64,000 bases of DNA. Source: Chlamydiia bacterium (GTDB lineage Bacteria; Chlamydiota; Chlamydiia; Chlamydiales; 2-12-FULL-49-11). A program made the translations under genes and the position numbers. A model generated the notes under the pieces. It had not been told where the DNA came from and made no database searches. It saw only the letters and a program-made list of their open reading frames with translations. The stretch spans positions 66,536 through 130,535 of the forward strand of contig JAJACI010000001.1 in NCBI GenBank assembly GCA_022601595.1, written 5' to 3'. Position 1 is the first letter of the stretch, and every line of letters starts with the position of its first letter. Shown here in pieces: positions 2,170-63,107 of this stretch.

Positions 2170-3192
2170 ATGCACAGCCTTGAAGAGGTTAAAGATGGCT
2201 ATAAGAAGCTTGGATCACCTGCAAAGCATTTTAAAACAGTTCATGTTACAGGCACCAACGGCAAGGGAACGGTATCATTAAATATTGCTAAAGGGCTGGA
2301 GAATCAGAGGTATAAGACAGCGCTATTTTCTTCTCCACATATTCATAGCGTTACCGAAAGGATCTCTATCAATGGAGATGAAATCTCTCTTGCTCGTATG
2401 GAAAAAATCTACAAAGAAAATATTTCCATTTTAGAGAAATTTTATTTTTTTGAATTGCTCACCTTGATTGCCTATATTTATTTTGCCGAAGAAGGGGTAG
2501 ATATAGCAGTTATTGAAGTGGGGGTTGGCGGTTTACACGATTCCACAAACGTTATCCACCCAGTGCTCTCTGTTATCACCAATATCACCTTTGATCATAC
2601 GCAGCTGCTTGGTAGCAGCCTAGAGAGCATTGCCTACAACAAAGCAAAGATCATAAAAAAAGATACCCCAGTCATTCTTGGTTTTCATGCAAGACACCCT
2701 TTAGTCTATGAACAGGCAAAGCAAGTAAATGCAAAAGTGATCGATCTTGATAGAGAATATGAGGATTACTTGGAGGAAAATAAGGCTATCTCCGATGCCG
2801 CTTTATTAGAGCTAGGAATAGAGCCCTCTAAAGAGTTTTTTTCTCCTCCTGCACGATTTGAGGTGCACAAAAACATCATTTTTGACATGGCACATAATAG
2901 AGCTGGGTTCTTGTCTTTAAAACAAAAATGTCTAAAGACCTATCCTTCGAAGAAAATAATAGCAATATGGAACATTGCCTCTGATAAAGAGATTCTCCCA
3001 TGCCTTGAAATACTGCACTCTTTCACCGAGGAGGTATACTTCTATCCCTCTACATCTGATAGGCTGATCACCAAAGAGATGGCAAAACAACTAGGCCTTA
3101 AAGAATATGATGGCGAGCAGTCCGATCTTATCTTAGCTTGCGGTAGCGCCTATATTATGGATGATCTTAAGGTGCTTCTCGGCTGCCTATAA
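2170..3192 (+). CDS. folC: Folylpolyglutamate synthase / dihydrofolate synthase
   Basis: VTGTNGKGT P-loop, SSPHIHSVTERISING, and Mur-ligase-type ITNITFDHTQLLG. Shorter N-terminus than is typical. Confidence 0.8.
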   Translation: MHSLEEVKDGYKKLGSPAKHFKTVHVTGTNGKGTVSLNIAKGLENQRYKTALFSSPHIHSVTERISINGDEISLARMEKIYKENISILEKFYFFELLTLIAYIYFAEEGVDIAVIEVGVGGLHDSTNVIHPVLSVITNITFDHTQLLGSSLESIAYNKAKIIKKDTPVILGFHARHPLVYEQAKQVNAKVIDLDREYEDYLEENKAISDAALLELGIEPSKEFFSPPARFEVHKNIIFDMAHNRAGFLSLKQKCLKTYPSKKIIAIWNIASDKEILPCLEILHSFTEEVYFYPSTSDRLITKEMAKQLGLKEYDGEQSDLILACGSAYIMDDLKVLLGCL

Positions 3193-3607
3193 TCTTGTTA
3201 TATATATTAAGGATTGTCTTTATTCCATGAATAACTAAGAGACCTGTTGAAAGTGCTACAACAGTAACTAGAAGGGATAATCCATTAGTGAACCAGGCGG
3301 TACTAATAAGTATGATACCTGCAAATACTTCTGCTATAAATAAGGCAATTTTTTTTGCCTTTTGCCATGTGTTTGTGTTTTCACCAAAGATCTGCGGTAA
3401 AAATTTGCTCTCTTTGTTAAAGTCCACTACAGTTTTGTATGTTTTACGGGCGCCATTAAATGCCAATGCTCCTAATCCTATGGATCCTACCATGCACAGC
3501 ACTGCAGTACTACTCTGATAATCAGTATAAGTAGATTTATAATGCATGAGCATGTTATCATTACTTGGCATTGAGCAACAGCTCTCATAAGTGATATTTA
3601 AAAACAT
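3167..3607 (-). CDS. Hypothetical membrane protein with two hydrophobic segments (Inc-like topology)
   Basis: The tracked ORF 3167..3682 overlaps acpS, so the internal Met (MFLNITYE) at 3607 avoids the overlap. Hydrophobic stretches are AVLCMVGSIGLGALAF and IALFIAEVFAGIILISTAWFTNGLSLLVTVVALSTGLLVI. Convergent 26-nt overlap with the folC end. Confidence 0.5.
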   Translation of the reverse strand: MFLNITYESCCSMPSNDNMLMHYKSTYTDYQSSTAVLCMVGSIGLGALAFNGARKTYKTVVDFNKESKFLPQIFGENTNTWQKAKKIALFIAEVFAGIILISTAWFTNGLSLLVTVVALSTGLLVIHGIKTILNIYNKIIGSREAP

Positions 3608-3668
3608 TTTCCCCTCTCTTTTTTTAAAGTAAATATAAACATTTAGAGAGTAAATAGCAAGGATATGT

Positions 3669-4052
3669 TTAGTGCATAGCAATTGCTACTGCAGTGGCAT
3701 ACTCTTTGCAGTGAGAGAGAGAGAGATGAAATTCTGGATTATTGAAATGCGATAGGGCTGACTTAGAAAGGCGTATATGTGGCTTTCCTAAATCATCTTT
3801 GATGATTTCAATGTCGTGGAATCCTAAATCTTTTCCAATGCCGCATCCAAGTGCTTTGGAAACGGCCTCTTTAGCGCTAAAGCGAGCCGCATAACGCGGG
3901 GTGCTGTCTGAAAAGGCATCGCAATATTCTTGCTCTTCTGCGGTAAAGATTTTATCGAGGAATTTCTTTCCGTATTTCTCTATAGATTTACTAAATCTAC
4001 CGATGGCGATAATATCGGTTCCTAATCCGGTGATGTTTTTGTTGTTATTCAT
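3669..4052 (-). CDS. acpS: Holo-[acyl-carrier-protein] synthase
   Basis: GLGTDIIAIGRF, FTAEEQEYC and YAARFSAKEAVSKALG motifs. Confidence 0.85.
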   Translation of the reverse strand: MNNNKNITGLGTDIIAIGRFSKSIEKYGKKFLDKIFTAEEQEYCDAFSDSTPRYAARFSAKEAVSKALGCGIGKDLGFHDIEIIKDDLGKPHIRLSKSALSHFNNPEFHLSLSHCKEYATAVAIAMH

Positions 4053-4054
4053 AT

Positions 4055-5152
4055 TTAGTCGCGTGAGTGCTCATAGTTAGGCTGGGCATCATAGGCATAT
4101 TCTATATCTTCAACCTCTTCTACCATAGCATTGGTAAAGATGATGCGTCCTGCAGAGGTTTGTTTTACAGAAATAACTTGTGTTTCGATGATTTCACCGA
4201 TAAAGCTTCCGCCATTATTTATCACAACCATGGTACCATCTTCTAAATACCCCACCCCTTGGTTGGGCTCTTTTCCATAACGTTGTACTTTTATTTCAAT
4301 AGACTCGCCGGCCATCATGATGTTCTTTAAGGAGTTTGCTATGCTAGTAAGATCTAAATATTCAACTTCGTCCCCATCTATATGCAGCTTGGATCCTTCC
4401 GCTGTTAAGATTCTAGACTTGGTGATTTTTGCTAGTCTGTGCACCTTTTTCTTTACATCTGTTAGATCAGAAAAGTCTGTTTCGTTTTCTTTTAAATTGA
4501 GATTCTTGATAGACTTTAACTTTTCAAGAACAGCTATAGCCTTGCGAATACCTACTCCTGTATGCTCTTCACAGCTGTCAAGTTTTGCTTGAAGATCGCG
4601 TAGAATAAAGGTTGGAAGAATTACTCTGCTATTTAAGATGCCTGTGGAGAGAAAATCAATAGCACGAGGGTCTGATAGGATGCTATCATCTATGATGATA
4701 TTTTTTTCGTTGTTTGATGCCTTGTTAAATCGAACAAAAGGTACTGATATGTGTAATTCTTCGGCGCAAGCAAAGGTTGCTACCATCCCTAGATGAATGC
4801 TGATAAGATATATAAGAGCTTTTGGAAATGTAATTAAATAAGAGGGGATAGAATTACCGAAAGCGGAAGAAAAGATGATGGTATCAAAGATTCCGCCTAA
4901 TGCTTTGCCTAAAAAGATACCTACAAAAAGCCCTAGTATAAGCGTTGCTAATACCCTAAGATGTACTTTCCTGACCGCTTTGTCTAAAGTGGCAAGTAGA
5001 AAGCATAAAAGAGCGCCGCAGAGTATCCCTGCAAGAAGATTTAAAGAGGTAGATCCTCCAAAGAGAGGCTTTATAAAGAGGAAGGATAAGAGGGTAAAGA
5101 GGGAGATGATAGCAGATGTTATAATACGAGTAAGTTTGATAGGTAGATCCAT
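4055..5152 (-). CDS. PIN/TRAM-domain integral membrane protein (YacL-like)
   Basis: N-terminal multi-TM region, a central PIN-like segment (IIDDSILSDPRAIDFL...ILPTFILRDLQ) and a C-terminal TRAM-like segment (GVGYLEDGTMVVINNGG...SAGRIIF). Confidence 0.7.
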   Translation of the reverse strand: MDLPIKLTRIITSAIISLFTLLSFLFIKPLFGGSTSLNLLAGILCGALLCFLLATLDKAVRKVHLRVLATLILGLFVGIFLGKALGGIFDTIIFSSAFGNSIPSYLITFPKALIYLISIHLGMVATFACAEELHISVPFVRFNKASNNEKNIIIDDSILSDPRAIDFLSTGILNSRVILPTFILRDLQAKLDSCEEHTGVGIRKAIAVLEKLKSIKNLNLKENETDFSDLTDVKKKVHRLAKITKSRILTAEGSKLHIDGDEVEYLDLTSIANSLKNIMMAGESIEIKVQRYGKEPNQGVGYLEDGTMVVINNGGSFIGEIIETQVISVKQTSAGRIIFTNAMVEEVEDIEYAYDAQPNYEHSRD

Positions 5153-5183
5153 TTAAATTTCCTTAAAATATATTTTCTTCATA

Positions 5184-6218
5184 TTAGTGTTCATGGACTT
5201 TTTTGTCGAGAGCCTCTTTTTTACCAAGCGCTTTTATGATCAGGACAAGCCCAAAAAGGATCATAGGAATGCTTAATAGCTGACCAGTTTGTAAGGGGAA
5301 GTGATAGTCATATATTGATTGTGGAACTTTCAAAAATTCTAGGAAAAACCTTACGCTAAAAGAGATTACTAAAGTTAAACCTGTGTATAAACCTGTTTGT
5401 TTTTTATAGGTATTTTTTTTCCACAGAGAGAATAAGAGGAAAAAGACCGATGCGTACAATAAAAATTCATATAATTGCATGGGATGTCTTGCAACAGGTA
5501 GAGCCCCATCTGCAGGATGCTTAAAAATAATGGCCCACGGTAAAGAAGAGGCAGCGCCTAAAATCTCTTGATTGACAAAATTGCCTATACGAATCCAGCT
5601 GCACACAAAGATGGTGGGTATGCTGATAAGATCCATAAAAGTGAGAAAGGAAATGCTTCTTTTACGTATAAAAAGATAGGCTGCGATAAAAATAGCAATA
5701 ATACCGCCATGACTTGCAAGCCCCCCTTCCCAAGTCTTAATGATCATAATGGGAGAAGTTATATACGGCCATATATTTTCATAAAAAAGGATGTGACCGA
5801 GCCTGGATCCAACAACCGTTGCAATAATGATATATAACAGCGCCGACTCTGCAAATGTAATGCTTTGAGATTGGATAGAAGGGATGGGATCTTCCTCTCT
5901 TTCTTCTAAATAAAGGCGTAGTTTTAATTGGTCCACTTTCTCTTTGTTCGATACCCTTGCTTGATAAAAATCTAATAACTTCTGCCCTTTTTTGGAGAGA
6001 ACAAAATCGCTAGGAATGCGAGCCTTTTCATACTTTTCAGGGATAGTAATATTTTGAAGAGAATACCTTGCATAGATCCAAATAAAAATTTTATAACCAA
6101 CATAGAAAGATGCGGAAAATATCACCCCATACCAAGCTATATCATGCTCTATAAAAGGGATAGAGAAGCATACAGGGTCCATATCAAAGGTGATAAAAGA
6201 AAAAAGCATAGCAAACAT
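5184..6218 (-). CDS. lgt: Prolipoprotein diacylglyceryl transferase
   Basis: GGLASHGG, RIGNFVNQEILG, PWAIIF and HPMQLYE motifs. Carries an ~80-aa charged insertion after the first TM pair. Confidence 0.85.
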   Translation of the reverse strand: MFAMLFSFITFDMDPVCFSIPFIEHDIAWYGVIFSASFYVGYKIFIWIYARYSLQNITIPEKYEKARIPSDFVLSKKGQKLLDFYQARVSNKEKVDQLKLRLYLEEREEDPIPSIQSQSITFAESALLYIIIATVVGSRLGHILFYENIWPYITSPIMIIKTWEGGLASHGGIIAIFIAAYLFIRKRSISFLTFMDLISIPTIFVCSWIRIGNFVNQEILGAASSLPWAIIFKHPADGALPVARHPMQLYEFLLYASVFFLLFSLWKKNTYKKQTGLYTGLTLVISFSVRFFLEFLKVPQSIYDYHFPLQTGQLLSIPMILFGLVLIIKALGKKEALDKKVHEH

Positions 6219-6282: not shown

Positions 6283-6449
6283 TTTAGGAGACTCTGATAA
6301 ACTACACCTTTTAGAATCTTTTCAGATTTTTTGAAATAAATCCGATTTTGGAGTAAGCTGCATCCCCGTAGGGATGGGGCGAAACGAAAAATAGGATGTA
6401 TCAAAAATCTGGAAGATTATAAAACTGTCCGTTTTTCAGAGTCTTCTTA
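6283..6449 (+). mobile_element. MITE-like palindromic element, subfamily A, copy A1
   Basis: Termini TTTAGGAGACTCTGATAAAC ... GTTTTTCAGAGTCTTCTTA and central hairpin CATCCC-CGTA-GGGATG. About 90% identical by eye to 10580-10746. Its right end supplies the stop of 6447..6755. Confidence 0.9.
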
Positions 6450-10579: not shown

Positions 10580-10746
10580 TTAAGGAGACTCTGATAAACT
10601 ACACTTTTTAGAATCTTTTCAGATTTTTTGAAATAAATTCTATTTTGGAGAAAGCGGCATCCCTGTAGGGATGGGGCGCCACGAAAAATAGGATTTATAA
10701 GAAATCTGGGAGATTATAAAACTGTCCGTTTTTCAGAGTCTCCTAA
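10580..10746 (+). mobile_element. MITE-like palindromic element, subfamily A, copy A2
   Basis: TTAAGGAGACTCTGATAAACTACAC ... GTTTTTCAGAGTCTCCTAA with central CATCCC-TGTA-GGGATG. Its right end supplies the TAG stop of 10743..12926. Confidence 0.9.
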
Positions 10747-13004: not shown

Positions 13005-16000
13005 CTAATTTAGATAATTGGCGATCAAAGCCTTTTTTCTGTTAAAAATTTCTTTAAAAGGTCCTTTATCAACTATTTTACCGCCATCTGATCCGCCGCC
13101 CGGGCCAAGGTCTATGATATAGTCGCTATTTGCAATAATATCAGTATTATGTTCGATGATCCATATTCCATGCCCTTTTAGAAGGAGGGTATCAAATAAT
13201 TTTAATAACAGCTCGGTGTCTGTAAAATGTAATCCAGTAGTTGGTTCATCAAAAACATATAGCGTATGTCCAAGATCTTTTTGTGTTAGCTCTTTGGTGA
13301 TCTTTAGGCGGGAGGCCTCTCCTCCGGATAATGTTTTTACTCGTCTATTTAACGTTAAGTGATCAAGCCCGGTATCTTTCATAAGAGCTAATGCTTTTGT
13401 AATTTTGGAAAGGGGAGGAAAGAGCATCCTAGCTTTTTCTACATCAGATTGTAAAAGTTCAGAGATGGAGAGCCCTTTATATTTGATAGAGAGGCTTAGG
13501 GGGTTTAATCGCAAACCATTACATGAGGAGCAGGTGAGCTTTACAGGGGGTAGAAAATGGAGATCTATCCATTCATGGCCGTGCCCTTTGCACCTTTTAC
13601 AATGTCCTAAGGGGCTATTAAAGCTAAAGTGTCCAGCTTTTAATCCTTTTATTTTGGAATCAGGAAGGGCAGCAAAAAAAGTCCTTAAAGGAGATAGTAT
13701 ATCTAAAAAGGTAGAAATATCAGATCGTGAGGAGAGAGAGACAGGAGTTTGGTTGATATGTAATATTTTGGATAGTACCTTACAGTTATCGATCACCCCA
13801 TCTTTTTTAGTAAGCTTGTTTAGCGGCTTTCTCCTTTTAAGATTTTCTGAAAGGCGCTCGTATAAGAGATCTATCACTAAAGAGGTCTTTCCTGCGCCAG
13901 AGACACCTGTAAAAGAGGTTATACCATCTAAAGGAATGTCGATACAAAGGTTTTTAATGTTGTGAATCGTAGCCTTTTCTAACAAGAGGAAGTTTGTAGC
14001 AGAGATAGCTTTTGTTTCTCTTTTAAGGATTTTCTTTTTTGAAAGGTAAGGGCCTGTTACAGAATTTTTATCTTTCAGAATCTGTTTATAAGAACCTTGG
14101 AATACAATCTCTCCACCATTTTTACCGCATAGAGGACCAAAGTCAATGATCTGATCAGCAATTTCCATGGTAAGAGGGTCGTGCTCAACAATAAGCAAGG
14201 TGTTGCCTCGCTCTTTCATTTTCAAAAGGGATTTATTTAGCAGTTCATTATTTACTGGGTGGAGGCCAATTGTAGGCTCATCAAGTATATAGCAGGCGCC
14301 TGTTAACTCTTTATGAAGCTCTTTAGAGAGGCGAAGGCGCTGTAATTCACCGGTAGAAAGGGTTCTTGTCATTCGGTTCAAAGAGAGGTAGCCAAGCCCT
14401 ATTTCATTTAAAAAAGATAGTGTGGAAAGTAGTTTTTCTAAAGGCTCTTTTATGCGGTCTGTCTTTTTGATTTTTTTTGCAAAGACTTGCGCTTCAGTAA
14501 GAGAAAGGGCGCATAAACTAGGAAGAGAAAGATTTTCCACAAGGACATTGGATGCAAGCGGGTTTAGCCTCCCTCCCTTACATTCAGGGCAAATTTCTTC
14601 ATTGCCACATCCAAAATAGGCGTACATCTCTTCATCAACATCGATCAAGATGCCAAGGCCGTGGCAATAGTCACACATACCATCTTTATGGTTAAACGAA
14701 AAGGTGTGGTGGGTGATCTTTGGGTAAGATATGCCTGTTTCTTTTACGGAAAAAGAGAGGTTGAAATACTGCTCTTTATCTTCTGTGATAAGGATCACTT
14801 CATCATCAGAGTATTTTACCGCAAGATCGATTCCTGCTATCAACCTTTTTTGTACAGACGGCCCTATAACTAGACGGTCGATAACCAGCTCTAAAGTGTT
14901 TTTTCGTAGCCGTCTATAGGGAATCTCCTCGTCAAGTTCATAGAGCTTTTTATTGAGCCTAATTCTTAAAAATCCACTGGCTAAAAATCTCTCCTTCCAT
15001 TCCTCAAAATTAGAAATTTCAGAGGTATTGATAGGGGCTAAAATGGTAAGCTTTGTTTTTTCAGGGAGATGTACATACTGACTTGCAATATATTCACTGG
15101 TAATTTGCACAATGGGATGGTGAGTATCTGGGCAATATGCCACTCCCTCATGTGTGTATATCAACCTTAGGTGGTCATATGTCTCTGCCATCGTCCCCAA
15201 GGTACTTCTTGGGTTCATACTACGCATCCTTTGCTCTATAGCAACGGTTGGAGAAAGGTTTTCTATTTTCCCATATTTTGGCTTGGGCATAGCTTTTACA
15301 AAACGCCTGGTAAAAGGGGGGAGTGTCTCTACAAACCTTCTTTGCGCCTCTGCAAAAATGGTGTTATAAGCAAGACTTGTTTTGCCTGATCCGGAAGGCC
15401 CTGCAAAAACGGTGATCTTCTCTTTGGGTATTTCAAGAGATAGGTTTTTCAGATTGTGCTCACATGCGCCTGTGATTACAATATTCTTTTCCTTTTCCTT
15501 TCTTACCACTTGTGTTTCTACCTGAGCTTTTTCACCAGCAAGCGCTGCTTTTATAAAAGGCGCTGTGGGAGAATTTTGTTTAGCTACCTGCTCTGGGGTA
15601 CCACATGCCATCACTTTACCACCGCCCGTTCCCCCCTTGGGCCCCAGATCAATCACATAATCACATGTTTTCACAAGATCCATGTTATGCTCAATGACAA
15701 GGATGCTATTTCCCGCATCAACCAGCTCGTGAAGGATAAGAAGGAGCTTTTGTATATCGTAAAAATGGAGACCTGTTGTGGGCTCATCAAGAATATATAA
15801 TGTCTGAGAGCTTTTCTTTTTAAGAAGTTCGCAGGCAAGCTTTACCCTTTGCGCCTCTCCACCTGATAAAGTAACCGCAGACTGTCCGAGGGTAATATAG
15901 CCAAGCCCCATTTGAAAAAGGAGGGAAAGTTTTTTATGAATAGAGGGGATCTCTGAAAAGAAGGTGCTACTTTCATCAATCGACATATCTAAAACATCGG

Positions 16001-18377
16001 AAATATTTTTCCCTTTATACGTGACAGATAGCGTCCCTGCATCAAACCTCTTTCCTTTACACTCCTCACATTCCACCCAGACATCTGCTAAAAAATCCAT
16101 GTCTACTTTAATAGATCCATTACCGCTACACCCTTTGCACGAACCTTCTTTGACGTTAAAGCTAAAGCGTCCATCTGTAAAACCTGCAGCCTTTGCCGCG
16201 GGGAGGGAGGCAAAAAACTTCCTGATATCTGTAAACACCCCAACATAGGTTGCAGGGTTCGACCTGGGCGTTCGCCCTATAGGCGATTGATCAATAGATA
16301 CCACTTTCTGAATAAGATCTTCACCGGTAATACTTTTGTTCTTACCAACAGATAAAGAAGTCTTGTGCAGCTTGTTGTTCAAATAGGGATAGAGCGTTTC
16401 GGAAATCAAAGAAGATTTTCCTGAACCAGAAATGCCTGTTACTGCAACCATTACATTTAGAGGTATGGTTAGGTTTACCTCCTTTAGGTTGTGATGTGAG
16501 GCCTTTTCTATTTTTATCCCCTTTGTAAGATCTATTTTCCGTCTCTTTGGTATGGAGATGGTCTCTCTTCCCGAAAGGTAGTTTGCGGTGATAGAGTTCT
16601 TTTCCTTTAAAAAGGCATCTCTTTTTCCATTGTATAACACCTCTCCGCCACCTTTGCCAGCAAGCGGACCAATATCTACAATAGAGTCGGAGGCAAGAAT
16701 CGTCTCCTCATCATGCTCTACGATGATAATGGTGTTGCCCAGCGCCTGAAGCGCTTTTAACGTTTTAATAAGTTTTAAGTTATCGCTAGGATGCAGACCA
16801 ATAGAGGGCTCATCTAAAATATACAATACATCGGTTAAAGACGATCCAATAAGCCCTGAAAGACGTACACGTTGTGCCTCTCCACCTGATAGCGTGGGAG
16901 AGGTTCTGTCGATAGTAAGGTAGGGGAGGCCTACATCTATTAAAAATGCTAATCGCGATTCTATTTCTTTGATAATTTCTTCAGCGACCACTTTTTGATC
17001 TTTGGTAAGCTTTACCTTTTTTATCTTGCTTAAAAAATCTTCTACCGAAAGCGAGGACCACTGCGCAATGGTCAGCCCATCAAATTGTGCCGCTGCCGGA
17101 TAGCTTTTTAATCGAGAACCTTTACAATCGGGGCATGAAAAGATGTCCATTAAATCGTGCATCTTCTTTTTATACAGAGCAGTGGATGACTCATTGATAC
17201 GATCTTTAGCAATGTTTATCGCCCCTTTCCACTCCACATAATCAGACCACTTATAGCCGGTGTCGGGATGAGTGAATTTCATCTTTACCCACTTCTCTTC
17301 GGTGCCATATAAAAAGATCTGCTTTGCCTTCTCAGAAAGTTTCTTCCACGGAGTGGTAAGCTTAAAGCCATAGATTTTAGCAAGATTTTTGAAGATATTT
17401 CCCCACTTTACCGTGTTATAATGGGGGGCAATAGAGCAACAATCTTCTGAAATACTTTGATCTTCATCTATAATTTTTTCAAGATCAAAATCCTCACATA
17501 TGCCAAGGCCTTTGCACCTGGTGCACATTCCTTTTGGATGGTTAAAAGAAAAATCTTCACTTTCTAATGTTTTATAGTAGATCCCTGATTTAGGGGAAAA
17601 GCTAAATAAAGAGTAAACACGTGTTTCTCCTAAAGAAGGAACAAGCAAAGAGAAAACCCCATCGCCAACACGTAAGGCATGAGCGGTTGCCTCATCAAGC
17701 CTTGTGCTATCATCTTTGGTGATAATACACCTGTCTATGACAATATCGATATCATGAGCTTTTTCTTTATCCAAAGTGGGTATCTCTTCACTCAAGTCAT
17801 AAAAATCCCCATCTATATAGAGTCGATAAAAACCCTTTTTTTGTAACCCTTGCATGTCATCTTTAAACGCGCCTTTTTTCCCTTTTGCAAAGGGAGCTAA
17901 AAATATAGCTTTTATCCCTTCACCTAATGAAACAATACTCTCTTTGATCTCTTTTTCGGTGGCAGGGGCTACCTTTTCGCCGCTGACCGGACAATATGGG
18001 ACGGCAAGATGGGCATATAAAAGCCTTAAATGATCATAGATATTGGTAATCGTTCCAACCGTGGAGCGCGGATTATGAGAGAGGGTCTTCTGCTCAATTG
18101 CAATAGTGGGAGGTAACCCTGAAATGATTTTTGCATCAGGAGATTTTAGCTTGCCTATTCCCCGTCTTGCACTTTTAGACAAGGAGTCAATATACCTTTT
18201 CTGCCCCTCAATAAACAAAGTGTCAAAAGCAAGCGACGATTTTCCTGATCCAGAGACTCCTGTAAAAGCAATCATCTCTCCAATAGTCAAGGAAAGATCG
18301 ACCCCTTTAAGGTTGTGGACCGTCACCCCTTTCAAGGTAATTTTTCTCTCTTTTTTCATAGCAACAGTATTAAGCAA
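13005..18377 (-). CDS. uvrA: Excinuclease ABC subunit A, internally duplicated long form (1790 aa)
   Basis: Four ABC ATPase modules (GVSGSGKSS, GISGSGKSS, GPSGSGKTS, GVSGAGKTS Walker A; repeated LSGGE signatures) and zinc-finger CxxC pairs. A ~1.8-kaa UvrA is characteristic of Chlamydiae as far as I recall. Confidence 0.95.
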   Translation of the reverse strand: MLNTVAMKKERKITLKGVTVHNLKGVDLSLTIGEMIAFTGVSGSGKSSLAFDTLFIEGQKRYIDSLSKSARRGIGKLKSPDAKIISGLPPTIAIEQKTLSHNPRSTVGTITNIYDHLRLLYAHLAVPYCPVSGEKVAPATEKEIKESIVSLGEGIKAIFLAPFAKGKKGAFKDDMQGLQKKGFYRLYIDGDFYDLSEEIPTLDKEKAHDIDIVIDRCIITKDDSTRLDEATAHALRVGDGVFSLLVPSLGETRVYSLFSFSPKSGIYYKTLESEDFSFNHPKGMCTRCKGLGICEDFDLEKIIDEDQSISEDCCSIAPHYNTVKWGNIFKNLAKIYGFKLTTPWKKLSEKAKQIFLYGTEEKWVKMKFTHPDTGYKWSDYVEWKGAINIAKDRINESSTALYKKKMHDLMDIFSCPDCKGSRLKSYPAAAQFDGLTIAQWSSLSVEDFLSKIKKVKLTKDQKVVAEEIIKEIESRLAFLIDVGLPYLTIDRTSPTLSGGEAQRVRLSGLIGSSLTDVLYILDEPSIGLHPSDNLKLIKTLKALQALGNTIIIVEHDEETILASDSIVDIGPLAGKGGGEVLYNGKRDAFLKEKNSITANYLSGRETISIPKRRKIDLTKGIKIEKASHHNLKEVNLTIPLNVMVAVTGISGSGKSSLISETLYPYLNNKLHKTSLSVGKNKSITGEDLIQKVVSIDQSPIGRTPRSNPATYVGVFTDIRKFFASLPAAKAAGFTDGRFSFNVKEGSCKGCSGNGSIKVDMDFLADVWVECEECKGKRFDAGTLSVTYKGKNISDVLDMSIDESSTFFSEIPSIHKKLSLLFQMGLGYITLGQSAVTLSGGEAQRVKLACELLKKKSSQTLYILDEPTTGLHFYDIQKLLLILHELVDAGNSILVIEHNMDLVKTCDYVIDLGPKGGTGGGKVMACGTPEQVAKQNSPTAPFIKAALAGEKAQVETQVVRKEKEKNIVITGACEHNLKNLSLEIPKEKITVFAGPSGSGKTSLAYNTIFAEAQRRFVETLPPFTRRFVKAMPKPKYGKIENLSPTVAIEQRMRSMNPRSTLGTMAETYDHLRLIYTHEGVAYCPDTHHPIVQITSEYIASQYVHLPEKTKLTILAPINTSEISNFEEWKERFLASGFLRIRLNKKLYELDEEIPYRRLRKNTLELVIDRLVIGPSVQKRLIAGIDLAVKYSDDEVILITEDKEQYFNLSFSVKETGISYPKITHHTFSFNHKDGMCDYCHGLGILIDVDEEMYAYFGCGNEEICPECKGGRLNPLASNVLVENLSLPSLCALSLTEAQVFAKKIKKTDRIKEPLEKLLSTLSFLNEIGLGYLSLNRMTRTLSTGELQRLRLSKELHKELTGACYILDEPTIGLHPVNNELLNKSLLKMKERGNTLLIVEHDPLTMEIADQIIDFGPLCGKNGGEIVFQGSYKQILKDKNSVTGPYLSKKKILKRETKAISATNFLLLEKATIHNIKNLCIDIPLDGITSFTGVSGAGKTSLVIDLLYERLSENLKRRKPLNKLTKKDGVIDNCKVLSKILHINQTPVSLSSRSDISTFLDILSPLRTFFAALPDSKIKGLKAGHFSFNSPLGHCKRCKGHGHEWIDLHFLPPVKLTCSSCNGLRLNPLSLSIKYKGLSISELLQSDVEKARMLFPPLSKITKALALMKDTGLDHLTLNRRVKTLSGGEASRLKITKELTQKDLGHTLYVFDEPTTGLHFTDTELLLKLFDTLLLKGHGIWIIEHNTDIIANSDYIIDLGPGGGSDGGKIVDKGPFKEIFNRKKALIANYLN

Positions 18378-19431: not shown

Positions 19432-19584
19432 AAAACTCATGCTGAATAATTAGTCCAGATTTCTTATAAATGAGATTTTTCGCGGCGGTCCAGCCCTACA
19501 GGGCTGAGCCTTACTCCAAAAACCAATTTATTCGAGCAATCTGAAAAAATTATTGAAACCAGCAGTTATTCAGAGTCTCCTTTA
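19418..19584 (+). mobile_element. MITE-like palindromic element, subfamily B, copy B1
   Basis: TTAGGAACCTCTGAAAAACTCATGCTGAATAATTAGTCCAG ... ACCAGCAGTTATTCAGAGTCTCCTTTA with central CAGCCC-TACA-GGGCTG. It is the reverse complement of 41582-41747. Confidence 0.9.
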
Positions 19585-31598: not shown

Positions 31599-32566
31599 CC
31601 AGTTTTGGGGAGTCTCATGGGAAAGGGATAGGATGCGTAATAGATGGATGCCCTGCAGGTGTTTATCTTGATGAGCAGATGTTTGCCTCTGCGATGAAAA
31701 GGCGAAGGCCTGGTTTTTCTCCCTTCACCTCACCGAGAAAAGAGGAAGATAGAGTAGAGATTTTATCTGGAGTATTTGAAAATACATCCACAGGGGCACC
31801 TATTACCTTATGGATAGAGAATAAAGATCAGAAAAGCACCTCCTATGAAGAAGTGAAGGATGTGATACGGCCCGGACATGCAAACTTTAGCTACTTAAAA
31901 AAGTATGGTATTTTCGATTATAGAGGGGGAGGAAGAGCGTCTGCCCGAGAGACAGCAACGCGTGTCGCAGCAGGGGTGGTGGCTAAACAATTACTTGGTG
32001 CTATTGTCATTCAAGCAAAAGTTATCCAAGTGGGGGGATATAAAGAGAACTTCAAAAAAGTACTTGAACAAGTGATAGAAGAGGGGGATTCGGTAGGCGG
32101 TATTATAGAATGTAATATTAAAAATGTCCCTCCCGGGCTTGGCGATCCTATCTATGAAAAGGTGGAGGCAAACCTTGCTAAAGCGATGCTTTCTATCAAC
32201 GCATGCCGAGGTGTAGAGTTTGGAGATGGCTTTGATTCAGCAGCTATGAAAGGCTCTTTGCACAATGACCAAATGGAAAATGGAAAATTTTTAACCAACC
32301 ACCACGGCGGAATCCTTGCAGGGATCACGACAGGAGAAGAGATAACCTTTAGAGCAGCCTTTAAACCCACCTCAAGCATCAAAAAAGAGATGAAAACGCT
32401 GCTTACCTGCGGAGCAAATACCACTTTAGCCCCTAAAAAAAACACAAGACATGATCCATGTGTCGCACTACGCGCCCCTGCGATTGTGGAAGCAATGGCC
32501 GCCCTTGTTTTCGCAGATTTTATTTTACTTAGCAATTGTGATAAATTGGAAAAAACTTTAACATAG
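31538..32566 (+). CDS. aroC: Chorismate synthase
   Basis: FGESHG, RRPG, GGGRASARETA and RHDPCV motifs. The real start may be the GTG at 31562. Confidence 0.95.
   Translation: MYGDSGGRVGSNSFGRQFKVTSFGESHGKGIGCVIDGCPAGVYLDEQMFASAMKRRRPGFSPFTSPRKEEDRVEILSGVFENTSTGAPITLWIENKDQKSTSYEEVKDVIRPGHANFSYLKKYGIFDYRGGGRASARETATRVAAGVVAKQLLGAIVIQAKVIQVGGYKENFKKVLEQVIEEGDSVGGIIECNIKNVPPGLGDPIYEKVEANLAKAMLSINACRGVEFGDGFDSAAMKGSLHNDQMENGKFLTNHHGGILAGITTGEEITFRAAFKPTSSIKKEMKTLLTCGANTTLAPKKNTRHDPCVALRAPAIVEAMAALVFADFILLSNCDKLEKTLT
32526..32565 (+). repeat. Direct repeat copy 1 (native 3' end of aroC)
   Basis: TACTTAGCAATTGTGATAAATTGGAAAAAACTTTAACATA. 37 of 40 bp are identical to 33789-33828. Confidence 0.9.
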
Positions 32567-32571
32567 ATTAC

Positions 32572-32731
32572 TATAGTCATTACCGTTTCATATGGCGTCT
32601 TCTTCTGCGAATTTGTGTAGTCTTTTGGTAAATGCATCTTGCTAATATTTATAATATTAGCTCGCTAACCCCCCCAAAACCCCCTCAAAAATTCATTGAA
32701 TAACAAACCATATGAAACGGTAATGACTATA
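32572..32731. mobile_element. MITE-like element, family C (160 bp, perfect 24-bp terminal inverted repeats)
   Basis: TATAGTCATTACCGTTTCATATGG ... CCATATGAAACGGTAATGACTATA with a central hairpin GCTAATATT-TAT-AATATTAGC and C7/C5 runs. Solo termini occur at 37485, 57943 and 63084. Confidence 0.85.
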
Positions 32732-32757
32732 TTAAATATTTTAGGTTAATCTTATGA

Positions 32758-33025
32758 AGTTCTCTTTATGATCCGCCGCCATATACATGGGATGATCTAG
32801 GCGATGACGCAACAAAGTGCCCTGGAGAAGGATTTAAATGGGGGGGGTAGTGGGGCTCCAGAAACTGGAAATGGTAATTGGGTGAAGGGTAGAAGAAAAG
32901 AATTTGACCTTCTTCATCCTGATTTTGATAATCCCCAGCATGACCCGCATTGGGACTATGAGAGCTCAGAATTTCCTGCAGGAGTTAGAATATATCCAGA
33001 TGGATGGGAGCATAAGGTACCATGA
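32758..33025 (+). pseudogene. Start-less, frameshifted fragment resembling the C-terminal toxin domain of a polymorphic toxin
   Basis: Two frames join across the G8 tract (32840-32847) to read SSLYDPPPYTWDDLGDDATKCPGEGFKWGG|SGAPETGNGNWVKGRRKEFDLLHPDFDNPQHDPHWDYESSEFPAGVRIYPDGWEHKVP. There is no start codon in the upstream frame. The tracked ORF 32804..33025 is the downstream part. Confidence 0.5.
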
Positions 33026-33483
33026 TACGAGAATTAGTTAAGTATAAATTAGACAAAGAAAAAATCCTGGAATATTTTCGTTGGAATTTAAAAGATTTAA
33101 ATATTTTGTCCAAAGAGGTTGTTGAAAATACTCCTTTTGACAAAGGAGAGTTTTACACGTTAATGCCAAAAGGCTTGTCGGAGGAGCAGGTGCATAGTTT
33201 TCGAGGGGGATGTGTAAAAAGTCACGGTATTCAGGAAGGAGTGTGTGATTTTATTTACAAAAAACAGAAATCAAATTCTGCTTTATTTTGTATATTTGAC
33301 GCTTTGTATGAAGAGTATGATTCAGATTTTGGTATAGGAGATGATCTTTTTTCAAAAATATCAGTGCATAATAATTGCAAGGAAATATATTTAGCTGTAC
33401 TAGATGGTGGGTTTTATGTGAGTTTATTACAAAAATGCTTTCAAATGACGGACTGTATTTGGCATTCACAAAGGAGACCTTGA
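33022..33483 (+). CDS. Hypothetical protein (153 aa), candidate immunity protein of the preceding toxin-like fragment
   Basis: ATGA start/stop overlap with the toxin-like ORF. The last four codons plus the stop (QRRP-TGA) are encoded by the terminus of element A6. No family recognised. Confidence 0.5.
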   Translation: MIRELVKYKLDKEKILEYFRWNLKDLNILSKEVVENTPFDKGEFYTLMPKGLSEEQVHSFRGGCVKSHGIQEGVCDFIYKKQKSNSALFCIFDALYEEYDSDFGIGDDLFSKISVHNNCKEIYLAVLDGGFYVSLLQKCFQMTDCIWHSQRRP

Positions 33484-33635
33484 TAAACGACACTTTTTAG
33501 AATTTCTTCAGATTTTTTGAAAGGTATTCTATTTTGGAGTAAGCGGCATCCCTGTCGGGATGGGGCGAAACGAAAAATAGAATGGATAAGAAATCTGGGA
33601 GATTATAAAACTGTCCTTTTATCAAGGTCTCCTTA
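33469..33635 (+). mobile_element. MITE-like palindromic element, subfamily A, copy A6
   Basis: CAAAGGAGACCTTGATAAACGACAC ... CTTTTATCAAGGTCTCCTTAG. Both termini carry the same CT-to-CC / AG-to-GG change, which preserves complementarity. The centre is CATCCC-TGTC-GGGATG. Confidence 0.9.
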
Positions 33636-33788
33636 GATGGTGATGAGTGATATCCCGTTTGAGAGAAATAAGGATAAGAGTATATCTACGCAGCAATTAG
33701 AGGATATAGCGAAAAAAGCACAGCTTGTTGTGCTTAGGGCCTATGACCAAGAGGGGTATGTTTTTTGGCAAAGAAATAGTGCGTTGAG

Positions 33789-33828
33789 TACTTAGTAATT
33801 GTGATAAATTGGAAAAAACTTTAGTATA
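33789..33828 (+). repeat. Direct repeat copy 2 (duplicated aroC 3' end) immediately upstream of cydA
   Basis: TACTTAGTAATTGTGATAAATTGGAAAAAACTTTAGTATA. It would encode LLSNCDKLEKTLV-stop, matching the aroC C-terminus LLSNCDKLEKTLT-stop. Confidence 0.9.
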
Positions 33829-33858
33829 AAATAATATTATACAATAAGGGCTTATCAT

Positions 33859-52393: not shown

Positions 52394-53431
52394 ATGAATA
52401 AAGTTGATCAATTAGTAGGACGCTCTGTAGGTATTAATATTGAAGAAAAGAAGCCTGCTAAAAAACATAGCACTACACTCATGCATTTAATCGGGGAAAT
52501 TCGGAATAAAGAGAATTCTACCGCAAGAAAGGTTGGTGAGAGTGTCGTTTTAGTTCTTTATTTTTTGAGCGGTCTTTTTTTAGCAGAAGCCCTTGGCTGT
52601 CTAGGAAATTGGATGTGGAGTGAGATCAAAAGAGGTCTCTCAAACCATAAAAGAACAGCTGAATTAAAAAATATCCTTATAAATGATGTCAAAACTAAAG
52701 CTACAAAAGCAATCCGCCCTTTAGCTTACGATATTCTTAACAAGCTTATGAGCAGACCTAAAGTGGTAGAGACCATTGATTATGTTACATCCCTTGGTGT
52801 GGCCACAGGAACAGGTGCCCTGAAAGACGTGCTCAATGGAAGGGTGTTTTGTGACGCTAAAAAGGTAGCTATTGATTCGGTTATGGGCAACTTAGGAGAG
52901 ACTGGAAATACAGTTTTAAAAGACTTCAACACCGTGTTTGGAATAGCAGAGAAACCCGCGGCTACAACGCCTCCGGCTGCAGATAAAGCGAAGCCTGAAG
53001 CAAAGAATCCGTCTGTTGAAAAAGTAAAAAAAATCATTTTTGATGAGCTTGAGACACTTGTTATGCAACCATTTTATACGATACTTGGTAACGCTTCTGA
53101 TGCGGTTAAGGCGGCTTTTTTGGGAACATCGGAAAAAGAGGAGATCGCTCCTATAAAACCTACCGCTACTGCTAAAGTTAAGACTCCAGAGGAAGACAAC
53201 ACTGCTGCATTAGAGTCTCAAGGTGCGCAAATGGTAAGTTGGTTGAAAGCGCTTGTTAAAGAAACACCTGGAAGTGATGCTCCAAAACAAGGTCCTGTTG
53301 TTACTAAAGTAGTACCGACACCCACAACTGGAGCAATACCTGAAATAAATGCAATAAAGGACAAATTTCTTGCAAATTTAAAGAAACAGGCTCCATGGCA
53401 TGTGCGATATTTTTTAGGGCAACTCTATTAA
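52394..53431 (+). CDS. Hypothetical protein (345 aa) with one hydrophobic hairpin-like segment and a Pro/Ala/Lys-rich region
   Basis: GGAGAGG SD, with the start 2 nt after the upstream stop. VVLVLYFLSGLFLAEALGCLGNWMW. The stop TAA is the first TAA of element A9. Confidence 0.65.
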   Translation: MNKVDQLVGRSVGINIEEKKPAKKHSTTLMHLIGEIRNKENSTARKVGESVVLVLYFLSGLFLAEALGCLGNWMWSEIKRGLSNHKRTAELKNILINDVKTKATKAIRPLAYDILNKLMSRPKVVETIDYVTSLGVATGTGALKDVLNGRVFCDAKKVAIDSVMGNLGETGNTVLKDFNTVFGIAEKPAATTPPAADKAKPEAKNPSVEKVKKIIFDELETLVMQPFYTILGNASDAVKAAFLGTSEKEEIAPIKPTATAKVKTPEEDNTAALESQGAQMVSWLKALVKETPGSDAPKQGPVVTKVVPTPTTGAIPEINAIKDKFLANLKKQAPWHVRYFLGQLY

Positions 53432-53595
53432 GGAGACTCTGATAAACGGACAGTTTTATAATCTCCCAGATTTCTTATCAATCCTATTTTTCGTGGCGCC
53501 CCATCCCTACAGGGATGCCGCTTACTCCAAAATAAAATTCATTTCAAAAAATCTGAAAAGATTCTAAAAGGTGTAGTTTATCAGAGTCTCCTTAA
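53428..53595 (-). mobile_element. MITE-like palindromic element, subfamily A, copy A9
   Basis: TTAAGGAGACTCTGATAAACGGACAG ... GTGTAGTTTATCAGAGTCTCCTTAA with centre CATCCC-TACA-GGGATG. Confidence 0.9.
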
Positions 53596-57755: not shown

Positions 57756-57923
57756 TTAAGGAGACTCTGAAAAACGGACAGTTTTATAATTTTCCAGATT
57801 TCTTATAAATCCTATTTTTCATGGCGCCCCATCCCGAGGGGGATGCAGCTTACTCCAAAATCGGATTTATTTCAAAAAATCTGAAGAAATTCTAAAAAGT
57901 GTAGTTTATCAGAGTCTCCTTAA
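57756..57923 (-). mobile_element. MITE-like palindromic element, subfamily A, copy A10
   Basis: TTAAGGAGACTCTGAAAAACGGACAG ... GTGTAGTTTATCAGAGTCTCCTTAA with centre CATCCC-GAGGG-GGATG. It appears to be inserted into a family-C element. Confidence 0.9.
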
Positions 57924-57966
57924 AAATTCATTGAACAGTACGCCATATGAAACGCTAACGACTATA
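57924..57966. repeat. Right-hand ~43 bp of a family-C element
   Basis: AAAATTCATTGAACAGTACGCCATATGAAACGCTAACGACTATAG aligns with 32689-32731. Confidence 0.75.
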
Positions 57967-63083: not shown

Positions 63084-63107
63084 TCATATGAAACGGTGAT
63101 GACTATA
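63084..63107. repeat. Solo family-C terminus
   Basis: TCATATGAAACGGTGATGACTATA versus the consensus CCATATGAAACGGTAATGACTATA. Confidence 0.7.

What the first reader, a model, noticed from the sequence alone, without database searches (positions are those of the whole stretch)
32758..33483. Orphan polymorphic-toxin-like C-terminal fragment plus overlapping candidate immunity gene in a chlamydia-like genome
Joining two frames across the G8 tract gives an 88-aa peptide: ...TKCPGEGFKWGGSGAPETGNGNWVKGRRKEFDLLHPDFDNPQHDPHWDYESSEFPAGVRIYPDGWEHKVP. The pattern is a Gly-rich G-x-G-N-W, then LHPD...H-x-P-HWDY, then PDG at the extreme C-terminus. This matches my recollection of a toxin domain found at the tips of RHS, LXG or filamentous-haemagglutinin-type polymorphic toxins. 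I cannot name the Pfam family with confidence. The fragment has no start codon and begins 26 bp after a MITE. It is followed, with an ATGA overlap, by a 153-aa ORF, the classic toxin-immunity arrangement. Orphan toxin-tip/immunity pairs are typical of polymorphic toxin loci. One embedded in the shikimate/cyd region of an intracellular bacterium would be unexpected.
Basis: inference. Interest (0 to 1): 0.75.

Follow-up and report, generated by a model that had tools for sequence, protein, structure and literature searches.

The report
Decayed RHS toxin–immunity cassette remnant
Between the chorismate synthase and cytochrome bd genes of a sponge-associated chlamydial genome lies the wreck of a bacterial "RHS" contact-toxin gene and its partner immunity gene, both now broken; this is an ordinary kind of system, though the immunity protein belongs to a family nobody has named.

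Summary
An open frame without a start codon (32758-32847) joins across a G8 tract (32840-32847) to a second frame (32849-33022). Together they give an 88-aa peptide that overlaps a 153-aa ORF by ATGA.

The peptide is a real toxin tip. It has 208 relatives (46 at E<=1e-10), almost all at the extreme C-terminus of RHS/YD-repeat proteins. 55 of 62 aligned tips hit Pfam Ntox37, a family already reported on RHS proteins and in chlamydiae.

It is not a spare "orphan" module. It is what is left of an RHS gene that sat at this spot. A related genome (L003) has a ~449-codon RHS gene (itself carrying an in-frame stop) at the same aroC–cydA position. The window keeps that gene's first five codons but has lost ~1.08 kb of shell, and it also carries the frameshift.

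The "153-aa immunity ORF" is the front three quarters of a ~200-aa gene split by a 164-bp MITE. The remainder is the 52-aa ORF at 33637-33795. This family directly follows the tip in 38 of 40 independent genomes, has no Pfam or NCBIfam match, and is not Imm32.

dN/dS of about 0.14 against L003 indicates the decay is recent. Interest is low to moderate.

The parts
32526..32574 (+). Direct repeat copy 1 (DR1). It covers the last ~13 codons and the stop of aroC.
   Evidence: 49 nt, 88% identical to 33789-33837, with a 27-nt core that is exact and unique to these two sites in the window. The same repeat pair brackets the cassette in L003/L004.
32568..32735 (.). MITE-A: a 168-bp inverted-repeat element inserted between aroC and the toxin-gene remnant.
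   Evidence: 50-nt arms, 82% complementary. TIR-like partial copies lie at 57943 and 63084. It is absent from the syntenic locus L003, which has a short hairpin there instead.
32754..32771 (+). Relic of the RHS gene's 5' end (ATG AAG TTC TCT TTA TGA = MKFSL*). The internal-deletion junction is at about 32766-32771.
   Evidence: It matches GTG AAG TTT TCT ATT TTA... at the start of the L003 RHS gene. About 1,077 bp of L003 (roughly 4282-5358) has no counterpart in the window.
32758..32850 (+). Toxin-tip fragment, frame A (30 codons plus TAG). It has no start codon. The G8 tract at 32840-32847 carries a +1 frameshift.
   Evidence: tblastn with the L001 RHS protein aligns residues 487-512 here at 65% identity.
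32849..33025 (+). Toxin-tip fragment, frame B (58 codons plus TGA). This is the Ntox37-type C-terminal domain. It is annotated as the 73-aa ORF SP4CHLAM5_01940 from an internal ATG at 32804.
   Evidence: It is 69% identical to the C-terminus of the L001 RHS protein. The AF2 model is all-beta with pLDDT 92.5.
33022..33483 (+). Immunity-family gene, 5' part. This is the 153-aa ORF (SP4CHLAM5_01930), which ends at a stop inside MITE-B.
   Evidence: Joined to 33637-33795, it aligns over 98% of its length to intact 199- and 205-aa homologues. The family abuts the tip in 38 of 40 loci.
33471..33634 (.). MITE-B: a 164-bp element inserted in the immunity gene at about codon 150.
   Evidence: Six full copies in the window at 85-90% identity, with TA target duplications at most copies. 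Absent from L003 at this position.
33637..33795 (+). Immunity-family gene, 3' part (52-aa ORF, same reading frame as the 5' part).
   Evidence: Homologous to the C-termini of P0003, P0004 and P0005. In the AF2 model it supplies the final helix and the last strands of a single domain.
33789..33837 (+). Direct repeat copy 2 (DR2). It overlaps the stop codon of the immunity gene, just upstream of cydA.

Best explanation
The region 32526-33837 is a pseudogenised RHS-type polymorphic toxin and immunity cassette. It sits between aroC and cydA and is bracketed by a ~40-49-nt direct repeat of the aroC 3' end.

In its intact form, seen in relatives, the cassette has two genes.

- The first encodes a Sec-signal-bearing short YD-repeat/RHS protein of ~450-570 aa. 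Its RHS-associated core ends in a DPxG motif, followed by a hydrophobic stretch, a Lys/Glu-rich linker and an ~85-aa all-beta Ntox37 tip.
- The second is translationally coupled through overlapping stop and start codons. It encodes a ~200-aa cytoplasmic alpha/beta protein that (inferred) binds and neutralises the tip in the producer.

Inferred mode of action: the RHS shell encloses the tip, the tip is released by autoproteolysis and delivered into a competitor, and it kills that cell. The killing activity is most likely that of a metal-independent RNase, using the conserved Glu and the His-x-Asp motif. This is only the 2012 prediction for Ntox37; no experiment supports it.

In the window the system is dead.

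- About 1.08 kb covering the signal peptide, shell, core and linker is deleted, and the junction is out of frame.
- The tip carries a +1 frameshift in a G8 run.
- The immunity gene is split by a 164-bp MITE.
- A second MITE sits just upstream.

Shown here: homology, architecture, the lesions, synteny and the toxin-immunity adjacency. Inferred: the immunity function, the RNase activity and the order of decay.
For: Tip homology
- 208 relatives at E<=1e-3 and 46 at E<=1e-10. The match lies within 10 residues of the C-terminus in 127 of 149.
- The long relatives are RHS_repeat proteins of 1,571-1,656 aa.
- 55 of 62 aligned tips hit Pfam Ntox37, best E = 2.3e-13. One relative (P0041) passes the gathering cut-off.
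- The model is all-beta with pLDDT 92.5. E48 and H64-W-D66 are retained. Both fit the published Ntox37 signature: all-beta; E, [KR], Hx[DH]; RHS; chlamydiae.

Intact and syntenic relatives
- L001 holds a 571-aa protein that passes TIGR03696, the RHS-associated core model (58 bits against a cut-off of 32.5), and ends in a tip 64-69% identical to the window's. An overlapping immunity gene follows, then a DUF4085 gene and two more immunity paralogues.
- L003/L004 have aroB-aroA-aroK-aroC, then an RHS gene (~449 codons, itself interrupted by an in-frame stop) and the immunity gene (itself frameshifted), then cydA-cydB, with the same direct repeats.

Immunity gene
- The two ORFs joined cover 98% of intact homologues.
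- The joined sequence models as one domain, pLDDT 88.6 and pTM 0.88.
- A family member is present in 39 of 40 tip-bearing loci and directly adjacent in 38. Twelve loci have 2-4 paralogues.

Lesions
-. They are reproducible in three other assemblies.

History
- dN/dS against L003 is 0.148 for the tip and 0.136 for the immunity gene at dS of about 1. The flanking genes give 0.03-0.10.
Against: - The window's own peptide scores only 13 bits against Ntox37 (cut-off 27.8). Membership therefore rests on transitive homology.
- No toxic, RNase or immunity activity has been shown for this family or for Ntox37. Neither model has a significant Foldseek match in the PDB, so the mechanism is borrowed from a prediction.
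- The near-invariant His at alignment position 58 is Asn in the window and in its closest relatives, L001 and L003. They have His61 instead.
- The rest of the genome outside the 64-kb window could not be searched. An intact paralogous system that gives the remnant some residual use cannot be excluded.
- The 40 loci were chosen by tip similarity, so the adjacency statistic is one-directional.
Confidence: 0.85

Rival explanations
1. It is a classical orphan (displaced) toxin-tip/immunity module, kept as a silent reservoir that can be recombined onto a full-length RHS gene elsewhere in the genome.
For: Related chlamydial loci do show that architecture, with pieces of RHS core or pre-tip sequence repeated downstream of the first immunity gene (L015, L037, L042). 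The tip has no start codon.
Against: - The fragment keeps the 5' end of its own gene and lies where a related genome has an RHS gene with its YD shell and RHS core, so it arose by internal deletion.
- It keeps no RHS-core sequence to serve as a recombination handle.
- The window has no RHS gene.
- The tip is frameshifted and the immunity gene is split by a MITE, so transfer would give a broken toxin without protection.
Confidence: 0.07
2. The G8 tract is a phase-variation switch. Slippage to G7 turns on a functional small toxin or effector.
For: Homopolymer tracts are classical contingency switches. L003 also has a homopolymer frameshift (an A11 run) in its immunity gene.
Against: - Restoring the frame still gives an ORF with no start codon, no signal peptide, no shell and no cleavage motif.
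- The partner immunity gene is destroyed.
- All three independent assemblies carry the same tract length.
- Relatives have no G run at this position; L003 reads TGG AAA GGC AGG GGG there.
Confidence: 0.03
3. The lesions are assembly or sequencing artefacts and the cassette is intact in the organism.
For: The source is a metagenome-assembled genome. MITE repeats can cause mis-joins, and L006 does diverge exactly at the end of MITE-B.
Against: - The data are Illumina, from two DNA extractions and two instruments.
- L005 is 100% and L007 99.93% identical to the window across the whole locus.
- A 1.08-kb deletion and two MITE insertions are not base-calling errors.
- The 52-aa 3' part follows MITE-B in the same frame, as expected for a true insertion.
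Confidence: 0.04
4. The ~200-aa protein is not an immunity protein but some other accessory factor of the toxin, such as a chaperone, adaptor or second effector.
For: There is no experimental evidence for immunity. It has no match to any named immunity family, including Imm32, the family reported with Ntox37.
Against: - It has the standard immunity position: immediately 3' of the tip, on the same strand, usually overlapping the stop, in 38 of 40 loci.
- Tandem paralogue arrays occur in 12 loci, as in poly-immunity loci.
- It covaries with this tip subfamily rather than with the RHS shell, appearing behind both short and long forms.
Confidence: 0.08

Closest known systems
Ntox37 (Pfam PF15535, 'Bacterial toxin 37'), described by Zhang, de Souza, Anantharaman, Iyer & Aravind 2012 (PMC3482391)
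   Same: - An all-beta C-terminal tip of ~80 aa with a conserved Glu and an Hx[DH] motif.
- Carried on RHS proteins with Sec-type export.
- Already recorded in chlamydiae.
- 55 of 62 tips of this subfamily hit the Pfam model.
   Different: - This is a divergent Chlamydiota/Verrucomicrobiota subfamily. Most members score below Pfam's gathering cut-off (17-23 bits for the five sub-threshold hits), and the window's copy scores 13 bits.
- The partner is not Imm32 but an unnamed ~200-aa family.
- The window's copy is a frameshifted fragment.
Rhs/YD-repeat polymorphic toxins with rhsI-type immunity genes (the enterobacterial Rhs-CT/RhsI kind)
   Same: - An RHS-associated core ending in a DPxG motif, followed by a variable toxic C-terminus.
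- A small immunity gene immediately downstream.
- Related loci show orphan modules and immunity arrays.
   Different: - Many chlamydial members are short (~450-570 aa), with only a few YD repeats and an N-terminal signal peptide, not ~1,400-aa T6SS-associated cocoons.
- In the window the whole shell and core are deleted.
Imm32 (the immunity family that Zhang et al. paired with Ntox37, Ntox12 and Ntox7)
   Same: The same genomic role is proposed: the gene directly downstream of an Ntox37 tip. Imm32 is also reported in chlamydiae.
   Different: None of the 42 family members hits Imm32 or any other Pfam model consistently. The family also has no NCBIfam hit, no PDB sequence match and no Foldseek-PDB match.

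Membership tests
Pfam Ntox37 (PF15535) | The sequence itself scores above the family's gathering threshold (27.8 bits) | tested here: not met
   The window peptide scores 13.1-13.4 bits, E = 0.12-0.15, although the match spans profile positions 7-78 of 78.
Pfam Ntox37 (PF15535) | Homology to family members, established through intermediates | tested here: met
   The window peptide matches relatives at E down to 3e-23. 55 of 62 of those tips hit Ntox37, best E = 2.3e-13, and P0041 scores 31.6 bits, above the cut-off.
Pfam Ntox37 (PF15535) | All-beta fold with conserved E, [KR] and Hx[DH] residues (Zhang et al. 2012) | tested here: met
   The AF2 model has six strands and one short helix, pLDDT 92.5. 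E48, H64-W65-D66 and K86 are near-invariant and present in the window.
Pfam Ntox37 (PF15535) | Toxic (predicted metal-independent RNase) activity | not testable with these tools
   This is only a prediction in the literature. There is no solved structural analogue.
RHS / YD-repeat toxin | YD-repeat shell and RHS-associated core (TIGR03696) ending in DPxG, upstream of the tip | tested here: not met
   Absent from the window: tblastn with the L001 RHS protein finds only residues 487-569. Present in relatives: TIGR03696 scores 58 and 60 bits against a cut-off of 32.5 in L001 and repaired L003, and RHS_repeat is found in the long relatives. The window is therefore a remnant, not a member in working form.
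Polymorphic toxin-immunity pair | A small gene immediately downstream of the tip, on the same strand, conserved as a pair across genomes | tested here: met
   ATGA overlap in the window. The family is adjacent to the tip in 38 of 40 loci and present in 39 of 40.
Polymorphic toxin-immunity pair | The immunity protein neutralises its cognate toxin | not testable with these tools
   This needs co-expression or binding assays, or at least a multimer model, which was not available here.
Imm32 | Profile match to the Pfam Imm32 model | tested here: not met
   No Imm32 hit for the window protein, P0003, P0004 or any of the 42 family members at E<=0.1.
Orphan toxin module (displaced tip/immunity cassette) | Lies downstream of a full-length main toxin gene and keeps a stretch of core sequence for recombination | tested here: not met
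   The upstream gene is aroC. No RHS core is retained. The fragment is fused to the gene's own first five codons.
MITE (non-autonomous inverted-repeat element) | Terminal inverted repeats, small size, no ORF, multiple dispersed copies, target-site duplication | tested here: met
   MITE-B is 164 bp, with six full copies at 85-90% identity and TA flanks at most copies. MITE-A meets only part of this: 50-nt arms but one full copy in the window.

The most novel reading that the evidence does not exclude
The ~200-aa alpha/beta protein family (WHS and AYDxEGY(I/V)FWEK motifs) is a previously undescribed immunity family. It is dedicated to a Chlamydiota/Verrucomicrobiota-specific branch of Ntox37 toxins. 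Together with a compact Sec-exported 'mini-RHS' carrier of ~450 aa, it forms a self-contained cassette that can insert at the 3' end of housekeeping genes by duplicating ~40 nt of the target. This would mean that environmental, host-associated chlamydiae wage or recently waged bacterium-against-bacterium warfare.
Probability: 0.4. Interest if true: 0.45.

Novelty: new member of a known kind. Interest (0 to 1): 0.3.

Why it matters
On its own this is a dead gene pair. It tells us that this sponge-associated chlamydia recently lost a bacterial competition weapon, which fits the genome erosion expected of an intracellular lifestyle.

Three wider points are useful.

- This Ntox37 subfamily and its unnamed partner family are common in environmental Chlamydiota and Verrucomicrobiota. 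They were under purifying selection until recently (dN/dS about 0.14), so these supposedly secluded bacteria do or did meet competitors.
- The partner family is a clean, testable candidate for a new immunity family, with high-confidence models for both partners and no solved structure for either.
- The annotated ORFs SP4CHLAM5_01940 and _01930 should be re-annotated as pseudogene fragments.

Tried and rejected
**Searches that gave nothing useful**
- A direct Pfam scan of the 88-aa peptide gave only a sub-threshold Ntox37 hit, and the 153-aa and 52-aa ORFs gave nothing.
- The word-indexed search with the peptide found only the window's own ORF. The exhaustive HMMER search was needed.
- NCBIfam on the tip and immunity proteins found nothing meaningful.
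- PDB sequence-profile searches with the tip and immunity alignments found nothing credible.
- Foldseek against the PDB gave a best E of 0.86 for the tip and 0.36 for the immunity model, at low TM-scores, so neither fold could be assigned.
It was repeated with 8 sequences.
- tblastn of the RHS, immunity and DUF4085 proteins against the whole window found no second copy.
- Rfam gave only far-sub-threshold plant miRNA-precursor matches on the MITE hairpins, and promoter-like sites were at the chance rate.

**Ideas checked and dropped**
- My first manual reading placed an in-frame ATG at the head of the tip frame. Translation showed this was wrong: the ATG at 32754 is in another frame and heads a 5-codon relic.
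- I looked for flanking direct repeats at other short RHS cassettes. None were found, so the repeat is specific to the aroC-cydA locus.
- MITE markers did not link L001 to the window's genome, so whether the intact L001 locus belongs to the same organism stays open.

Full report
**1. The observation**

- A frame opens at 32758 straight after a TGA (32755-57). It has no start codon and reads SSLYDPPPYTWDDLGDDATKCPGEGFKWGG, then stops at TAG 32848-50.
- The stop lies just past a run of eight G (32840-32847). Removing one G continues the reading as SGAPETGNGNWVKGRRKEFDLLHPDFDNPQHDPHWDYESSEFPAGVRIYPDGWEHKVP, with TGA at 33023-25.
- That stop overlaps the ATG of a 153-aa ORF (33022-33483) as ATGA.
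- The flanks are aroA, aroK and aroC upstream and cydA and cydB downstream.
- The database's own copies of the two ORFs are "hypothetical proteins" SP4CHLAM5_01940 and _01930 of a Chlamydiia MAG.
- That MAG comes from the sponge Haliclona oculata, sequenced with Illumina from two DNA extractions (Dharamshi et al. 2022, PMC9666466).
- Contigs from three further assemblies are 99.9-100% identical across the locus and carry the same frameshift.

**2. What the peptide is**

- A direct Pfam scan gave only a weak Ntox37 match (13 bits, E = 0.15) that nevertheless spans the whole profile.
- An exhaustive HMMER search of 1.84 billion representatives found 208 relatives at E<=1e-3 and 46 at E<=1e-10.
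- In 127 of 149 relatives the match ends within 10 residues of the C-terminus.
- The long relatives (1,571-1,656 aa) are standard RHS-repeat proteins.
- Of 62 aligned tips, 55 hit Ntox37 (best E = 2.3e-13), and one relative passes Pfam's gathering score. The peptide is therefore a divergent Ntox37 tip by transitive homology.
- Zhang et al. 2012 (PMC3482391) describe Ntox37 as all-beta with E, [KR] and Hx[DH] motifs. They report it on RHS proteins, note it in chlamydiae, pair it with Imm32 and list it under "Predicted metal-independent RNase toxins".
- An AlphaFold2 model built on 61 tips is confident (pLDDT 92.5, pTM 0.82) and all-beta.
- The near-invariant E48, H64-W65-D66 and K86 are present in the window's copy.
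- No solved structure resembles the model, so the RNase mechanism remains a literature prediction.

**3. Where the fragment came from**

Two kinds of relatives settle this.

- *Non-syntenic, intact (L001/L002).* This contig comes from the same sponge specimen. It carries a 571-aa protein with a signal-peptide-like N-terminus, YD repeats and an RHS-associated core (TIGR03696, 58 bits against a cut-off of 32.5). Its sequence then shows a DLNGR motif at the position of the canonical DPxG, a hydrophobic stretch, a Lys/Glu-rich linker, and a tip 64-69% identical to the window's.
- *Syntenic (L003/L004).* These contigs come from two other metagenomes. They have aroB-aroA-aroK-aroC, then an RHS gene of ~449 codons and the partner gene, then cydA-cydB.

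Aligning the window to L003 shows three things.

- The window keeps the RHS gene's 5' end: ATG AAG TTC TCT at 32754, against GTG AAG TTT TCT in L003.
- About 1,077 bp is missing. That stretch covers the signal peptide, shell, core, DPxG motif and hydrophobic region.
- The junction is out of frame, leaving MKFSL* followed by the start-less tip.

The fragment is therefore the in-situ remnant of a whole gene, not a displaced spare module. Classical orphan-module repeats do occur in other chlamydial loci (L015, L037, L042).

**4. The partner gene**

- The 153-aa ORF ends at a stop inside a 164-bp inverted-repeat element (33471-33634).
- The 52-aa ORF at 33637-33795 is in the same frame. The two joined align over 98% of their length to intact 199- and 205-aa proteins, P0003 and P0004.
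- The element (MITE-B) has six full copies in the window at 85-90% identity, mostly with TA flanks. It is absent at this position in L003.
- The joined 202-aa sequence models as one compact alpha/beta domain (pLDDT 88.6, pTM 0.88). Its last helix and strands come from the 52-aa part. The annotated 153-aa product is therefore a truncated domain.

**5. Is it an immunity gene?**

- A genome scan with a tip alignment returned 40 loci, almost all from Chlamydiota or Verrucomicrobiota MAGs.
- An HMM built from five family members found the family in 39 of these loci. In 38 it lies directly after the tip's stop, on the same strand. Twelve loci have 2-4 tandem paralogues.
- L001 itself has three paralogues plus a DUF4085 gene.
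- This is the standard genomic signature of cognate immunity, but it is context evidence only.
- The family has 44 clusters in the indexed database. All are "hypothetical" and none has a Pfam domain.
- No member hits Imm32 or any other Pfam model consistently, and there is no NCBIfam, PDB-sequence or Foldseek-PDB match.

**6. History**

- A ~40-49-nt direct repeat of the aroC 3' end brackets the cassette in the window (32526-32574 and 33789-33837) and in L003/L004. It occurs nowhere else in the window.
- This suggests the cassette entered by an event that duplicated the target. No recombinase gene is present, and the mechanism is unexplained.
- Between the window and L003, dS is about 1 for all genes. 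dN/dS is 0.148 for the tip and 0.136 for the partner, against 0.03-0.10 for aroA, aroK, aroC, cydA and cydB.
- Both cassette genes were therefore constrained for most of the divergence.
- L003 carries its own, different lesions: TGG to TAG at the conserved Trp of the tip, and a frameshift in an A11 run of the partner gene.
- The parsimonious reading is recent, independent decay in both lineages.
- A split immunity gene is tolerated in the window. This fits the toxin having been inactivated first (inference).

**7. Rivals**

- *Phase-variable switch at G8.* Unlikely. Restoring the frame still leaves no start codon, signal peptide or shell, and the partner gene is broken.
- *Assembly artefact.* Unlikely, given identical sequence in independent Illumina assemblies and the nature of the lesions.
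- *A non-immunity accessory role for the partner.* Cannot be excluded without experiments.

**8. Verdict**

It is, however, a doubly pseudogenised remnant of a known kind of system, in a group where that system is common. The only new element is the unnamed immunity family, together with the compact Sec-type RHS carrier it accompanies.

Noticed in passing
window 6286-6448, 10582-10744, 33471-33634, 36423-36586, 53430-53593, 57758-57921: A 164-bp MITE family (MITE-B) has six full-length copies at 85-90% identity in 64 kb. The ends are AGGAGAC...GTCTCCT, most copies have TA flanks, and there is a GC-rich central hairpin. Further fragments lie near 19455, 24000 and 25012. This density is high for a chlamydial genome.
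   Followed up: partly
window 32568-32735; partial matches at 57943-57964 and 63084-63105: A second inverted-repeat element (MITE-A, 168 bp, 50-nt arms) sits between aroC and the toxin remnant. One of its TIR-like fragments (57943) lies directly next to a MITE-B copy (57758-57921), which suggests nested or clustered insertions.
   Followed up: partly
L006 (GCA_022601415.1, JAJACR010000009.1) 3832 onward, against window 33635: This MAG contig is 99.9% identical to the window up to the last base of MITE-B. It then continues into a methyltransferase gene and an Rce1-like gene instead of the rest of the immunity gene and cydA. This is either a real rearrangement between MITE copies or a chimeric join at the repeat.
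   Followed up: partly
window 32526-32574 and 33789-33837; L003 4204-4242 and 6219-6257: A ~40-49-nt direct repeat of the aroC 3' end brackets the cassette in both lineages. Within each genome the two copies share a lineage-specific base (TTGG in the window, TTAG in L003), which hints at gene conversion. No integrase is nearby and the insertion mechanism is unexplained.
   Followed up: partly
L003 5470-5475 and 5860-5870 (identical in L004): The syntenic cassette in a related chlamydial metagenome contig is also inactivated, but by different lesions. The conserved Trp codon of the tip is TAG, and an A11 run frameshifts the immunity gene into 92-aa and 112-aa ORFs.
   Followed up: yes
L001 4388-8466: An apparently intact toxin locus from the same sponge specimen: a 571-aa signal-peptide RHS-Ntox37 protein, an immunity gene (199 aa), a DUF4085 protein (165 aa), and two further immunity paralogues (196 and 205 aa). 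Two predicted beta-rich secreted proteins of ~215-227 aa lie just upstream (2844-4277). Which genome the contig belongs to was not determined.
   Followed up: partly
L008, L009, L010, L012, L014, L015, L016, L046 (open frames of 366-406 aa upstream of the tip): Many chlamydial carriers of this tip are short (~450 aa) RHS proteins, not ~1,600-aa ones. I did not examine whether these are functional 'mini-RHS' toxins or widespread truncated copies.
   Followed up: no
window ~32766-32771, against L003 ~4283-4291 and ~5356-5364: Both edges of the ~1.08-kb stretch missing from the window carry TAATG in L003 (ATTTTAATGCTC and GGATAATGACAA). The window junction reads TTATGA, which is compatible with a microhomology-mediated deletion.
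   Followed up: no
L008, L009, L013, L017, L029, L033, L038 record titles: Several environmental MAGs that carry this toxin are titled 'Chlamydia trachomatis isolate ...' in their public records. From their contents they appear to be environmental chlamydiae with a mislabelled organism field.
   Followed up: no
window 13005-18377 (- strand): A 1,790-aa ORF, the largest in the window. It was not examined. tblastn with the RHS protein did not match it.
   Followed up: no
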